Of a DNA stretch of 64,000 nucleotides, positions 6,001 through 9,000 are shown piece after piece. The first letter of the stretch is position 1. Each line of letters begins with the position of its first letter. A program made the position numbers. The stretch lies in NCBI RefSeq assembly GCF_056746865.1, contig NZ_CM163382.1; one strand, given 5' to 3'.

Positions 6001-9000
6001 CCAGATAGTCTGAGGGAACGCTGTCGATGCGGCGAAGTAAAGACGTTGTTGATAATAAACAACCGTGCCAGGATAACCGTTAACACTGTTCCAGGCATAT
6101 TTAGCCCATTTATAGCTGGCATTATCCTCGCCAACGACCTGCGAAGGGATATAGGAAATCACCTCAGCAGTTGCAGTAGTTCCATTTGCAGCAGTGATAC
6201 GGGCAATGCCAAAACCACTGTGCAGATATTCCCACTCAATGCCAGTATCATCATCACCGGATCCGCCCCAGCCATCCCATGATGTGCCTTCTGTATGCGA
6301 AGGGCGCAAAGTGCCTGTTTTGCCTGCTGTAACGGCGCGATAGTAGTTACTGTCTGCACGGCGAATATCGCCAATCGACGTACTCTTACTGGTTTCCCAT
6401 ACCGGCACTGAATCCACTGCAGGCTGTTCCAGATAGAACAATTTGCCTACCTGCTCCGCGCCAAAAATAGAGGCGCTTGCCGTTAACGTAATTGTCCCGG
6501 TGCTGGCGCTGGCATAAACCGTCACTGACTCGTCAATATTGATATCTTCAAATGGCCCGTTCTTCGTTACCACATCAACCAGTTGCCAGTTGTCATGCGC
6601 ATAGCGGCGCAACTCTTTCGGTGGGTATGCCGGGTGAACCAGCGTAAGCACGTCGGCGCTTTGCGTGAATTTAATTCGGAACAAATCGGCTTCAGTATAT
6701 GGCGTGGCAATTTCATAAATAACATTGCTGCTGTTCAGCACCAACGCACCATCTTTGATAACGCGCATGTACTGGTGTCCGAACTCCAGAGCATAGGTCT
6801 GAACCGTCGAGAACTGGAACGGGATAAGACGGCATTTCCGATTTGGGTATTTGGCGGCACCAACAAAACGCGTACCAGGTCGATTCTCAACGCCGCCATA
6901 CTGCCGCACGATAAAGTTATCGCACTTGCGCAATGCCACCTGGTACTTCGCCATGTCGATACGTCCGTACAACGACGGTCCAATCTCACCACCAGCAAAG
7001 CTGGGCTGGATCCAACTGATAGCCATCAGGACAACCTCGCAATGGTAAACTCGTCAACCGGTGGCTGTGGTTCCTGTGATTCATTCTGGCTATGCGAGCC
7101 AGCACTAAGAATCACGCGATTGTACATATTGAGAGCAAATGTACCGAGATCCGCATTCCCAGTCAGCGCCATGTTAATGGCTGCCGCAAGACGCCAGGCC
7201 AGCGCCTCCATAAAAATGGCATCAAACATGTTTACATCTGAAACGCGAGAGACATACTTGAGCCATGCCTGCGGCTGGTCTGTGTAGATCAATTTTCCTG
7301 TTCCGTTGGTGTCTGCACCAACTTCGTACTGAACGCGCATTGCTGCTGTTGGATTGCGTACACCAGGAAGCATAATTTCAGTAATGCGCAGACAATCGGA
7401 CGGGTACTGGTACGCATATTCCCAGTCAGGCGGTGGATTGTTCGTATCTGCAAGCGCCACGCGTTTGGTAGCAAAGTTCCAGTCAAAATCAGAAAGCACA
7501 GCATCACGGCAGGCATCAAAGTGCAGCGAACATTCCCCCGCTTCCTTGCTGGCTTCCGTCAGGCTGTTAATGCTGCGGCTATTGCCAATATTGGACAGCG
7601 CACGATTGCAGATCTCTACTACAGAGGCCATTACTCACCCCCATTGCCGTACAGAGTTTCAGCCGCTGATTTTTCTACATCCCCGGAAACAGGAGCGATC
7701 GCCATATCAGTGATCTGCAGATCGGCGCTGCGATTAACACCATCGTCAGTTTCTCTGGCAGACAGGCCTCGAATAACAGCCTTTGCAGTTATCATCACTT
7801 CTGTTCCGACGCCCTGAGGTTGCGCCTTCAGCTTATTCAATGTGTCGTTATTCAGCGTGATGCACAGCCCCCACGGGTATTCATCGCGAGTTCTGGTTTC
7901 TCCGCTCTCATCCTGGTAGCTGTCAGTGCCGGTTTTGAGGTTTACGAGTTCCATATACACTCCTGCAATAAAGGGGCCGAAGCCCCTTGTCTGATCCGCG
8001 AGGCTTACACGCCCAGTTCTTTACGCTTATCTGCGATCTTCTCGCGGAGCGTTTCGGCTTTGGCGTTATGGTGTGGCTTCTCGTTAAAGAGCAATTCGTA
8101 CTCTTCACGGAGCTTATCCAGTTCACCATCATCTGACACATCGTTGATGATTTTGGTGCTGGTTGCTGCCATTGACACCTTTCCTGCAACTTTTGCTTTT
8201 GCCTGTCTGGCTGCATCGTTAACAGGTTCCAGTGCGCTACCAGGCTCACCTTCGTATTCGATTTCTGCCCCCTCCTGCCACAGAGTGTTATGGATATGAG
8301 AGAGGCGCAGAACGCGGTATCTTGGTTTCTCACCTGACATCGATATCACCTTAACCAGTTACTTTTGAGCGGATCGGATACGGCGTATTGGCATCAACAT
8401 CAAGACTGATACCAGCAGTGAATTCGCCAGCCGTTAGTGGGCCAGTTGCGACGGAGTAGTTAACACGCAGATATCGCTGAACACCGGCAGGCACCTTTGC
8501 AGAAACGACTCGTTTACCTGCTGTCAGGGTGGTCTTTGCCAGTGCACCACTATCATAAATAGTGGTCCATGAGCTGTTATCCTCACTCGTCTGCAACTGG
8601 ATGTTTACAGTTGCATCACCGCTTGCTGCGGCGGCTGTGTTAACCAGCGCCCAAAACTCAAGCGGGTAACCCACGCCGATATCACGACGTTTTCCGTCAA
8701 TTGGACCGAGATCGATTACGTCAGTAGAAGCCGCGGTATCAGTTACCGCCTGTGCTTCGGAGAACATCAACAGTTTGTCGGTGATCATCTTCTTTCTCCA
8801 TTAGTGGGTCTGTTACGACCCACAGGTTAATAACAGGCGTTACACCACGCTGGCTTCTGTTTCCAGAAGCGCATCAGTTTCACGGATTGGTACACCACGG
8901 AATGACGTCCACCACTCGCCTTCAGTCTCTTTTACGCTGATCGCCAGAGATGTTTTCTCCAGAGACTGCAAATCAAGAGCCTGGCCTACAGTGCGGTTCA

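What the first reader, a model, noticed from the sequence alone, without database searches (positions are those of the whole stretch)
8803..8822. Stable hairpin immediately after the major capsid gene
GTGGGTC-tgttac-GACCCAC lies between the capsid stop (8840) and the next gene start (8788) on the transcribed strand, without a strong T-run. T7-like phages carry a terminator or attenuator after the capsid gene to boost capsid mRNA relative to downstream genes, and this may be an analogous partial terminator or stability element.
Basis: partly seen in the sequence, partly recalled or inferred. Interest (0 to 1): 0.25.

Follow-up and report, generated by a model that had tools for sequence, protein, structure and literature searches.

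The report
Conserved RNA hairpin after capsid gene
A short RNA hairpin just after the major capsid gene of a phiV10-like prophage is real and has been kept by evolution, but it lacks the features of a transcription terminator and most likely shields the capsid message from degradation, which is an ordinary kind of element.

Summary
The hairpin exists, one base off the stated coordinates. On the minus (sense) strand, 8823..8804 reads GUGGGUC-guaaca-GACCCAC (dG -12.4). It lies in the 51-nt spacer between the epsilon15-type major capsid gene and a Bbp16-like gene of a phiV10-like (Uetakevirus) prophage.

A 7-bp hairpin alone is unremarkable: about 50 occur in the window. Comparison with relatives shows selection:
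- Across 29 distinct spacers, 95.5% of pair cells stay paired, and 5 of 7 pairs change on both sides.
- Mismatches are G.U on the sense strand, which points to RNA.
- In more distant BPP-1-side relatives, 21 of 22 spacers of 45 nt or more carry an unrelated GC-rich hairpin near the capsid stop. Shorter spacers carry none.

No lineage has a U-tract after the hairpin. A canonical terminator (UUCG loop plus U-run) lies two genes downstream at 7971-7988, also in epsilon15, BPP-1 and HU1.

My best reading is an mRNA decay barrier that protects the 3' end of the capsid message, like the U-less stem-loops at E. coli Rho-dependent 3' ends. It is not a T7-style attenuator. Function is inferred, not shown. 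This is a new member of a known kind, of modest interest.

The parts
8804..8823 (-). Conserved RNA stem-loop. 5' arm 8823-8817 GUGGGUC, loop 8816-8811 GUAACA, 3' arm 8810-8804 GACCCAC.
   Evidence: Sequence. dG -12.4. Covariation: 95.5% of cells paired, 5 of 7 pairs changed on both sides, 0 of 500 shuffles reach the score.
8824..8839 (-). 16-nt A/U-rich single-stranded segment (CGCCUGUUAUUAACCU) between the capsid stop codon and the hairpin.
   Evidence: The sequence is fairly conserved in the enterobacterial clade. It keeps the hairpin outside the footprint of a ribosome terminating at the stop codon (inference).
8789..8803 (-). Tail and translation-initiation region of the next gene: UAAU, then SD GGAG (8799-8796), then AAAGAAG before the AUG at 8788-8786. 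No U-tract.
   Evidence: The SD sits 4 nt after the stem in nearly all enterobacterial variants.
8840..9832 (-). Major capsid protein gene (epsilon15 gp7 / BPP-1 Bbp17 type); the hairpin lies at its 3' end.
   Evidence: Pfam PF20911 GP7 E=5.7e-149. 98% DNA identity to phiV10. phiV10p10 is annotated as major head protein.
8351..8788 (-). Bbp16-like (capsid cement family) gene immediately downstream of the hairpin.
   Evidence: Pfam PF21190 Bbp16 E=1.7e-46. RefSeq names it 'Bbp16 family capsid cement protein'.
7971..7988 (-). Second hairpin, two genes downstream: AAGGGGC-UUCG-GCCCCUU followed by UAUUG. A canonical terminator-type element between the gp9-like gene and the gp10-like decoration gene. 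Listed as context and contrast.
   Evidence: L189, L190 and L192 have 7-8 U after the stem. Annotated as a rho-independent terminator in epsilon15. Equivalent terminators occur in BPP-1 and HU1.

Best explanation
The element is a structured RNA stem-loop in the late polycistronic mRNA of a phiV10/epsilon15-like prophage. It sits in the ribosome-free gap between the capsid stop codon (16 nt upstream) and the Shine-Dalgarno sequence of the next gene (4 nt downstream). It most likely acts after transcription as a decay barrier. Host 3'->5' exonucleases (PNPase, RNase II) start from a downstream 3' end, created either at the canonical terminator two genes later or by an endonuclease cut, and stall at the hairpin. 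This leaves a stable message ending just after the capsid gene. The capsid segment would then outlast the distal segments without transcription of the downstream genes being cut off. Shown here: the hairpin exists, is on the sense strand, is conserved through compensatory changes, tracks the capsid gene's 3' end across the wider family, and lacks a U-tract everywhere. Inferred: that it stalls exonucleases and raises capsid mRNA half-life.
For: (1) The structure is selected. In 29 distinct spacers from phiV10-, Tyrion-, Klebsiella- and Salmonella-type relatives, 95.5% of pair cells are standard pairs and 5 of 7 pairs change on both sides. The covariation score is 0.442, against 0.205 for shuffles (0 of 500 reach it) and at most 0.106 for slid registers. 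Stems as different as GUGGGUC/GACCCAC, AUGGGCC/GGCCCAU, AGCGGCCCG/CGGGCUGCU, AGCGGGGC/GCCCCGCU and GGGCCGG/CCGGCCC occupy the same place. (2) It is RNA on the sense strand. Intermediates are G.U or U.G on the sense strand (10 cells; Tyrion, L152, Klebsiella and L184 types), against one C.A singleton (L133). (3) It belongs to the capsid 3' end. In 65 distinct spacers from BPP-1-side relatives, all 43 spacers of 41 nt or less lack a strong hairpin. Of the 22 spacers of 45 nt or more, 21 carry one (dG -11 to -28). These start between 12 nt before and 20 nt after the stop and end 8-37 nt (19-37 in 20 of 21) before the next AUG; several hold the stop codon in the loop. In 19 of 20 lineages the spacer folds better than shuffles, with z at or below -1.5. 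(4) There is no U-tract in any lineage, while a canonical U-tract terminator is conserved two genes downstream. The lineage therefore uses U-tracts where termination is wanted. (5) Loops are of the extra-stable kind: GNRA (GCGA, GUAA, GGAA, GAAA, GUGA) or UAAC/UNAC-like. This fits selection for a robust roadblock. (6) There is experimental precedent for exactly this anatomy in E. coli. [quoted passage not shown] The gal operon E-hairpin at the galE-galT junction blocks 3'->5' digestion (PMC9239205).
Against: No transcript data exist for any phage of this group, so the function rests on anatomy and analogy only. Epsilon15 itself has a 12-nt spacer with no comparable hairpin. Some close BPP-1 relatives (L216, L221) also lack it. 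The element is therefore dispensable, and its effect may be small. A 7-bp stem at -12 kcal/mol is at the low end for an exonuclease block. In the enterobacterial clade the hairpin is as close to the downstream SD (4 nt) as to the stop, so a role in the downstream gene's expression is not excluded.
Confidence: 0.45

Rival explanations
1. It is a partial transcription terminator or hairpin-stabilised pause site for host RNA polymerase. This would lower transcription of the genes after the capsid gene.
For: It is a GC-rich hairpin directly after the most abundantly needed gene. [quoted passage not shown] The gal E-hairpin has a dual pause and stability role.
Against: The tail UAAUGGAG has no U-tract, and none of about 40 independent variants has one. 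The site is not flagged by the terminator scan. No G-10/Y-1/G+1 pause consensus lies 11-12 nt after the stem (read from the sequence). In BPP-1 the downstream product is equimolar with the capsid protein. A true U-tract terminator is conserved two genes later.
Confidence: 0.15
2. It serves the downstream Bbp16-like gene. It could be a 5'-terminal protective hairpin after endonucleolytic cleavage in the A/U-rich segment upstream. Alternatively it could be a structural insulator or standby element that sets translation initiation at the SD 4 nt away.
For: The 4-nt spacing to the SD is constant in the enterobacterial clade. An A/U-rich single-stranded stretch (CCUGUUAUUAAC) precedes the stem. Processed operon mRNAs with 5' hairpins are known (papBA; general knowledge).
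Against: In distant relatives the hairpin tracks the stop codon (-12 to +20 nt) and its distance to the next AUG varies from 8 to 37 nt. Some hairpins use the capsid's own last codons as the 5' arm (HU1, L270). Disrupting or deleting the hairpin in silico does not change the predicted SD or AUG accessibility. A candidate outer helix that would sequester the SD shows no covariation and is unpaired in 17-18 of 29 sequences at its inner pairs.
Confidence: 0.2
3. It is a specific protein-binding RNA operator, with a GNRA-like loop presented on a short stem. A phage or host RNA-binding protein would recognise it, for example for translational feedback or antitermination, boxB-like.
For: The loop class is conserved while stems diverge. 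It is either a GNRA tetraloop or a UAAC-type loop. The identical GUAACA loop occurs in phiV10 and in BPP-1-side contigs L210, L211 and L213, whose stems are unrelated.
Against: Many lineages have other loops (UUU, CGCGU, AUG, ACAUC, UCCG, CUAG), so no single loop sequence is required. GNRA and UNAC loops are also expected simply from selection for stability. The upstream segment does not conserve the boxA core and differs between clades. The position deep in a late operon is unlike nut sites. No candidate binding protein was identified.
Confidence: 0.08
4. It is a DNA-level palindrome (protein-binding site or cruciform), or a neutral leftover with no function.
For: The stem is a perfect palindrome in this window. 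The element is absent from epsilon15 and some BPP-1 relatives.
Against: Compensatory changes preserve pairing rather than sequence. G.U intermediates occur only in the sense-strand reading. Unrelated hairpins recur at the same position in distant relatives. Spacers fold better than shuffles in 19 of 20 lineages.
Confidence: 0.05

Closest known systems
Protective stem-loops at the 3' ends of E. coli Rho-dependent or processed transcripts, including the gal operon E-hairpin at the galE-galT junction (Dar & Sorek 2018, PMC6061677; PMC9239205)
   Same: A stable GC-rich stem-loop of about 7-8 bp with a short loop and no following U-run, located at a cistron junction inside an operon. In those systems it is shown to block PNPase/RNase II-type 3'->5' digestion and to define the steady-state 3' end.
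   Different: Here nothing is measured. The gal E-hairpin lies about 100-120 nt beyond the galE stop (positions 1,142-1,161; 3' end about 130 nt past the stop), inside galT, whereas this one lies in the spacer 16 nt after the stop. The source of the downstream 3' end (the terminator at 7971-7988, Rho, or an endonuclease) is unknown.
Intercistronic mRNA decay terminators: the puf operon stem-loop of Rhodobacter capsulatus (Chen et al. 1988, cited in PMC9239205) and the malE-malF REP hairpins (general knowledge)
   Same: A hairpin placed after the cistron whose product is needed most, giving segmental differences in mRNA stability within one operon.
   Different: REP elements are multi-copy with a consensus sequence; this hairpin is single-copy in the window and shows no obvious resemblance to the recalled REP consensus (not tested). 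The puf structure is larger. In BPP-1 the downstream product is needed in equal amount, so the stoichiometric rationale is weaker.
T7 T-phi and equivalent terminators just after the capsid gene in T7-like phages (e.g. LUZ100, PMC10134795)
   Same: Position immediately after the major capsid gene of a podovirus.
   Different: T-phi is a hairpin plus U-run read by a phage RNA polymerase. Here there is no U-run, and the epsilon15 annotation lists no phage RNA polymerase gene. The U-run terminator of this phage group sits two genes downstream (7971-7988).
Canonical intrinsic (rho-independent) terminator
   Same: GC-rich stem with a compact loop.
   Different: It lacks the defining U-tract and is followed 16 nt later by the next gene's start codon in the same operon.
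Lambda-type nut site (boxA + boxB hairpin with a GNRA-like loop)
   Same: A short stem with a GNRA-like loop, preceded by a loosely boxA-like CGCCUGUUAUUAAC segment.
   Different: The boxA core is not conserved between clades. The stem is 7-9 bp rather than 5 bp. The location is mid late-operon rather than promoter-proximal in an early operon. No N-like protein was identified.

Membership tests
Intrinsic (rho-independent) terminator | GC-rich stem-loop | tested here: met
   7-bp stem with 5 G-C pairs, dG -12.4.
Intrinsic (rho-independent) terminator | U-tract immediately 3' of the stem | tested here: not met
   The tail is UAAUGGAG (2 U in 8). The site is not listed by the terminator scan. Enterobacterial variants lack a U-tract, and BPP-1-side hairpin-bearing spacers have at most 3 U in 8 nt.
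Intrinsic (rho-independent) terminator | RNA 3' ends or a drop in transcription at the site | not testable with these tools
   No transcript mapping was found for phiV10, epsilon15 or BPP-1.
T7 T-phi-type late terminator after the capsid gene | Phage-encoded single-subunit RNA polymerase that recognises it | tested here: not met
   The full epsilon15 annotation lists no RNA polymerase gene. Not checked directly for the window prophage beyond its 98% identity to phiV10 over the queried capsid region (1.6 kb).
RNase III processing site (T7 R-site type) | About 20 bp or more of double-stranded RNA | tested here: not met
   The stem is only 7 bp (up to 12 bp in relatives), and the extended outer helix is not supported.
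mRNA decay-barrier / 3'-end protective stem-loop (gal E-hairpin, Rho-dependent 3'-end hairpins, puf) | Stable stem-loop not followed by a U-run, at or after the end of a cistron | tested here: met
mRNA decay-barrier / 3'-end protective stem-loop (gal E-hairpin, Rho-dependent 3'-end hairpins, puf) | Structure, rather than sequence, under selection on the mRNA strand | tested here: met
   Covariation 0.442, with 0 of 500 shuffles reaching it; G.U only on the sense strand.
mRNA decay-barrier / 3'-end protective stem-loop (gal E-hairpin, Rho-dependent 3'-end hairpins, puf) | Steady-state 3' ends a few nt downstream, dependent on the stem and sensitive to PNPase/RNase II | not testable with these tools
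   Needs 3'-RACE or Term-seq in induced lysogens and in exonuclease mutants.
REP / BIME repeated extragenic palindromes | Multi-copy element with a REP consensus | tested here: not met
   One copy in the 64-kb window at up to 3 mismatches. The element travels with the phage capsid gene.
Lambda-type nut site | Conserved boxA core upstream of a 5-bp boxB with a GNRA-like pentaloop | tested here: not met
   The upstream segment varies between clades (CGCCUGUUAUUAAC, CCCCUGACUAUAAC, CCCCCUGACCAACUC), the stem is 7-9 bp and the loops are heterogeneous.
Any curated Rfam family | Covariance-model match | tested here: not met
   cmscan of 7000-11000 at E<=10 returned only a spurious lncRNA hit elsewhere.

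The most novel reading that the evidence does not exclude
The hairpin could be a specific recognition site rather than a passive roadblock. A GNRA-like (GNRA or UAAC) loop would be displayed just after the capsid gene and bound by a phage-encoded or host RNA-binding factor. That factor would couple capsid-gene translation or termination to expression of the downstream head genes, or load an antitermination factor that carries RNA polymerase through the canonical terminator 830 nt downstream. Recurrence of the identical GUAACA loop on unrelated stems in phiV10-like and BPP-1-like phages would then reflect conservation of a binding determinant.
Probability: 0.07. Interest if true: 0.6.

Novelty: new member of a known kind. 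Interest (0 to 1): 0.3.

Why it matters
This prophage family is common: the locus is in 518 of 5,426 complete E. coli genomes. phiV10 is also used as a reporter phage. An unannotated, clearly selected RNA element next to the capsid gene matters for engineering insertions at that junction. It also matters for understanding how temperate podoviruses that rely on host RNA polymerase balance structural-gene expression. The head-module layout is capsid gene, U-less hairpin, two small genes, then a canonical terminator. In this complete form it is seen in phiV10-like phages, BPP-1 and HU1; epsilon15 keeps the terminator but lacks the hairpin. This gives a simple, testable model of segmental mRNA stability in a phage late operon. 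It is not a new principle.

Tried and rejected
- Rfam scan of 7000-11000 found nothing relevant.
- An extended outer helix pairing CUGUUA with UAAUGG would mask part of the SD. It appears in the MFE fold, but comparison rejects it: the inner pairs are unpaired in 17-18 of 29 sequences, with no real covariation.
- An alternative pairing of upstream GCCUGUUA with UAACAGGC (loop plus 3' arm) becomes the best fold only in two rare variants (L152, L092). The Salmonella and Tyrion types break it, so it was not pursued.
- A hairpin-stabilised pause was considered. No G-10/Y-1/G+1 consensus lies 11-12 nt after the stem. The only match (G8796...U8787 G8786) is 17 nt away (read).
- RNase III site: the stem is far too short.
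- REP element: the sequence is single-copy.
- nut-like boxA/boxB: the boxA core is not conserved.
- 'Insulator' of the SD: in-silico arm mutants and a deletion leave SD and AUG accessibility unchanged.
- The covariance-model re-alignment (R1) did not correct a one-column register shift of the Klebsiella-type stems. A 5'-anchored alignment (A6) did. Two sequences (L196, L208) remain out of register there and count as unpaired, which makes the test conservative.
- Literature searches for transcript maps of phiV10, epsilon15 or BPP-1 found none.
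Full report
**Observation.** On the minus strand the window reads ...GUG GUG UAA CGCCUGUUAUUAACCU GUGGGUC GUAACA GACCCAC UAAU GGAG AAAGAAG AUG....
- The inverted repeat occupies 8804-8823, one base to the right of the coordinates given.
- It is a perfect 7-bp stem with a 6-nt loop, dG -12.4 kcal/mol.
- The upstream ORF, 8840..9832 (-), is an epsilon15-gp7-type major capsid protein (Pfam GP7, E=5.7e-149).
- The downstream ORF, 8351..8788 (-), is a Bbp16-family protein (E=1.7e-46).
- Portal, Bbp19-like, protease and gp10-like decoration genes surround them.
- The queried capsid region (window 8300-9900) is 98% identical to Escherichia phage phiV10 (Uetakevirus).
- The same junction occurs in 518 of 5,426 complete E. 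coli genomes.

**Is it more than chance?** Taken alone, only weakly.
- Perfect 7-bp hairpins with 3-8-nt loops gave 69 hits, about 50 distinct sites, in the 64 kb.
- By energy, this is one of 12 sites at or below -13.6 kcal/mol among 24-nt windows on this strand in 1..40000.
- The 57-nt spacer folds better than 199 of 200 dinucleotide shuffles, z=-2.75.
- The real evidence is comparative.

**Comparative evidence in close relatives.** Three IMG/VR scans, two of them on the enterobacterial clade, plus phage records gave 29 distinct versions of the homologous spacer, with capsid protein identity of 78-100%. All but two singleton variants (L133, L092) keep an intact hairpin at the same place, but the stems differ widely:
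- GUGGGUC/GACCCAC (phiV10)
- GUGGGCC/GGCCCAC
- GUGGGCC/GGCCCAU (Tyrion, with a G.U pair)
- AUGGGCC/GGCCCAU (Salmonella)
- AGCGGCCCG-GNRA-CGGGCUGCU (Klebsiella)
- AGCUGCCUG-GUGA-CGGGCGGCU
- AGCGGGGC/GCCCCGCU
- GGGCCGG/CCGGCCC
- GGCGGGC/GCCCGUC

On a 5'-anchored alignment (A6) the pair count gave these results:
- 95.5% of cells form standard pairs.
- 5 of 7 pairs change on both sides.
- The covariation score is 0.442, against 0.205±0.025 for shuffles (0 of 500 reach it) and at most 0.106 for slid registers.
- Two out-of-register sequences count as unpaired, so the test is conservative.
- Wobble intermediates are G.U or U.G on the sense strand (10 cells), against a single C.A singleton. This points to RNA in the mRNA sense rather than a DNA palindrome or an antisense RNA.

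**Comparative evidence in distant relatives.** In 65 distinct capsid-to-Bbp16 spacers from BPP-1-side relatives (59-100% identity to Bbp17), spacer length is bimodal.
- The 43 spacers of 41 nt or less contain only a Shine-Dalgarno sequence and no strong hairpin.
- Of the 22 spacers of 45 nt or more, 21 contain a GC-rich hairpin of -11 to -28 kcal/mol.
- These hairpins start between 12 nt before and 20 nt after the capsid stop and end 8-37 nt (19-37 nt in 20 of 21) before the next AUG.
- Several (HU1, L270, L216, L273) use the capsid's last codons as the 5' arm, with the stop codon in the loop.
- In 19 of 20 representative lineages the spacer folds better than shuffles, with z at or below -1.5.
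- The hairpin therefore tracks the 3' end of the capsid cistron, not the start of the next gene.
- It is gained and lost as a unit. Epsilon15 itself has a 12-nt spacer without it, as do L216 and L221.

**What it is not.**
- No variant has a U-tract after the stem. The enterobacterial tails are purine-rich, and the hairpin-bearing BPP-1-side spacers have at most 3 U in 8 nt. The terminator scan does not flag the site.
- The epsilon15 annotation lists no phage RNA polymerase gene, so T7 T-phi logic does not transfer.
- The stem is too short for RNase III.
- It is single-copy, so it is not REP.
- Rfam has no match.
- A larger fold that would mask the SD is not supported by comparison.
- In-silico disruption of the hairpin does not alter SD or AUG accessibility.

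**The terminator two genes downstream.** At window 7971-7988, between the gp9-like and gp10-like genes, there is a second hairpin.
- It reads AAGGGGC-UUCG-GCCCCUU followed by UAUUG.
- It is conserved across the clade and carries 7-8 U in L189, L190 and L192.
- It is annotated as a rho-independent terminator in the epsilon15 record.
- BPP-1 and HU1 have canonical terminators at the equivalent place, GGGGGC-UUCGU-GCCCCC-GCUUUUUCUU and AAGGGAGCC...GGUUCCCUU-UUUUU.
- The head module thus has a recurring layout: capsid gene, U-less hairpin, two small genes, then a canonical terminator.

**Mechanism.** The best-supported reading is a decay barrier, or 3'-end protective stem-loop.
- The hairpin sits in the only stretch that neither a terminating nor an initiating ribosome should cover: 16 nt after the stop and 4 nt before the SD.
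- It has extra-stable loop types, GNRA or UAAC/UNAC-like.
- It matches the anatomy of elements shown experimentally in E. coli to stop PNPase and RNase II and to define steady-state 3' ends. These are stem-loops lacking U-runs at Rho-dependent 3' ends (PMC6061677) and the gal operon E-hairpin (7 G.C plus 1 G.U, 4-nt loop) near the galE-galT junction, about 100-120 nt into galT (PMC9239205).
- Transcripts ending at the downstream terminator, or cut within the two small genes, would be trimmed back to this hairpin. That would leave a long-lived capsid message.
- This part is inference; no transcript data exist for this phage group.
- In BPP-1 the downstream product Bbp16 is equimolar with the capsid protein (PMC3863775). 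This argues against strong attenuation but is compatible with a stabiliser.

**Rivals.** The alternatives are listed below with their estimated probabilities:
- a weak terminator or pause site (0.15)
- a 5' stabiliser or initiation-context element for the downstream gene (0.20)
- a specific protein-binding operator suggested by the recurrent GNRA/UAAC loops, including an identical GUAACA loop on unrelated stems in phiV10 and in L210, L211 and L213 (0.08)
- a DNA-level or neutral feature (0.05)

**Verdict.** Interest is modest (0.3).

Noticed in passing
window 7971-7988 (-), spacer 7955-8004: A second conserved hairpin, AAGGGGC-UUCG-GCCCCUU followed by UAUUG, lies between the gp9-like gene and the gp10-like decoration gene. 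It is terminator-like, carries 7-8 U in some relatives, and is annotated as a rho-independent terminator in epsilon15. BPP-1 and HU1 have equivalent canonical terminators. Because gp10 is an abundant capsid protein in epsilon15, read-through or an internal promoter must exist.
   Followed up: partly
window 8799-8794 with 8764-8759 (-): The SD region GGAGAA of the Bbp16-like gene is predicted to pair with UUCUCC (codons 9-10, Phe-Ser) 29 nt downstream, with pairing probability about 1 in a 161-nt context. UUCUCC is nearly invariant even at synonymous sites in 14 divergent relatives. This could be a translation-damping structure. No covariation is available to test it.
   Followed up: partly
loops of the post-capsid hairpins: window 8811-8816; L210, L211, L213, L218, L220, L175, L193 and others: Loops are mostly GNRA tetraloops or contain UAAC. 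The hexaloop GUAACA is identical in phiV10-type phages and in three BPP-1-side contigs with unrelated stems. In HU1, L270, L216 and L273 the loop's UAA(C) is the capsid stop codon itself. This hints that the detached hairpin descends from a stop-codon-embracing one.
   Followed up: partly
L206 3488-3539 (IMGVR_UViG_2531839159_000004): In one relative the hairpin, the SD and the start of the Bbp16-like gene are replaced by a C/U-rich stretch (CCCCTCCCTCTACCCCTCTACTTCCTCGAG). It looks like a damaged or rearranged prophage copy.
   Followed up: no
window 8831-8838 with 8808-8815 (-): Upstream GCCUGUUA is nearly complementary to UAACAGAC (loop plus 3' arm). In variants L152 and L092 this alternative pairing becomes the best fold. 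Other clades do not conserve it.
   Followed up: partly
L006 2946-2956 (epsilon15): Epsilon15 lacks the spacer hairpin (its spacer is 12 nt). It has a 4-bp mini-hairpin, GCCG-UAA-CGGC, inside the last capsid codons, again with GUAAC at the loop.
   Followed up: no
window 9826-9832 (-): The capsid ORF in the window can start at the ATG at 9832 (330 aa). phiV10 and its relatives annotate the start 6 nt downstream (987 nt, 328 aa).
   Followed up: no
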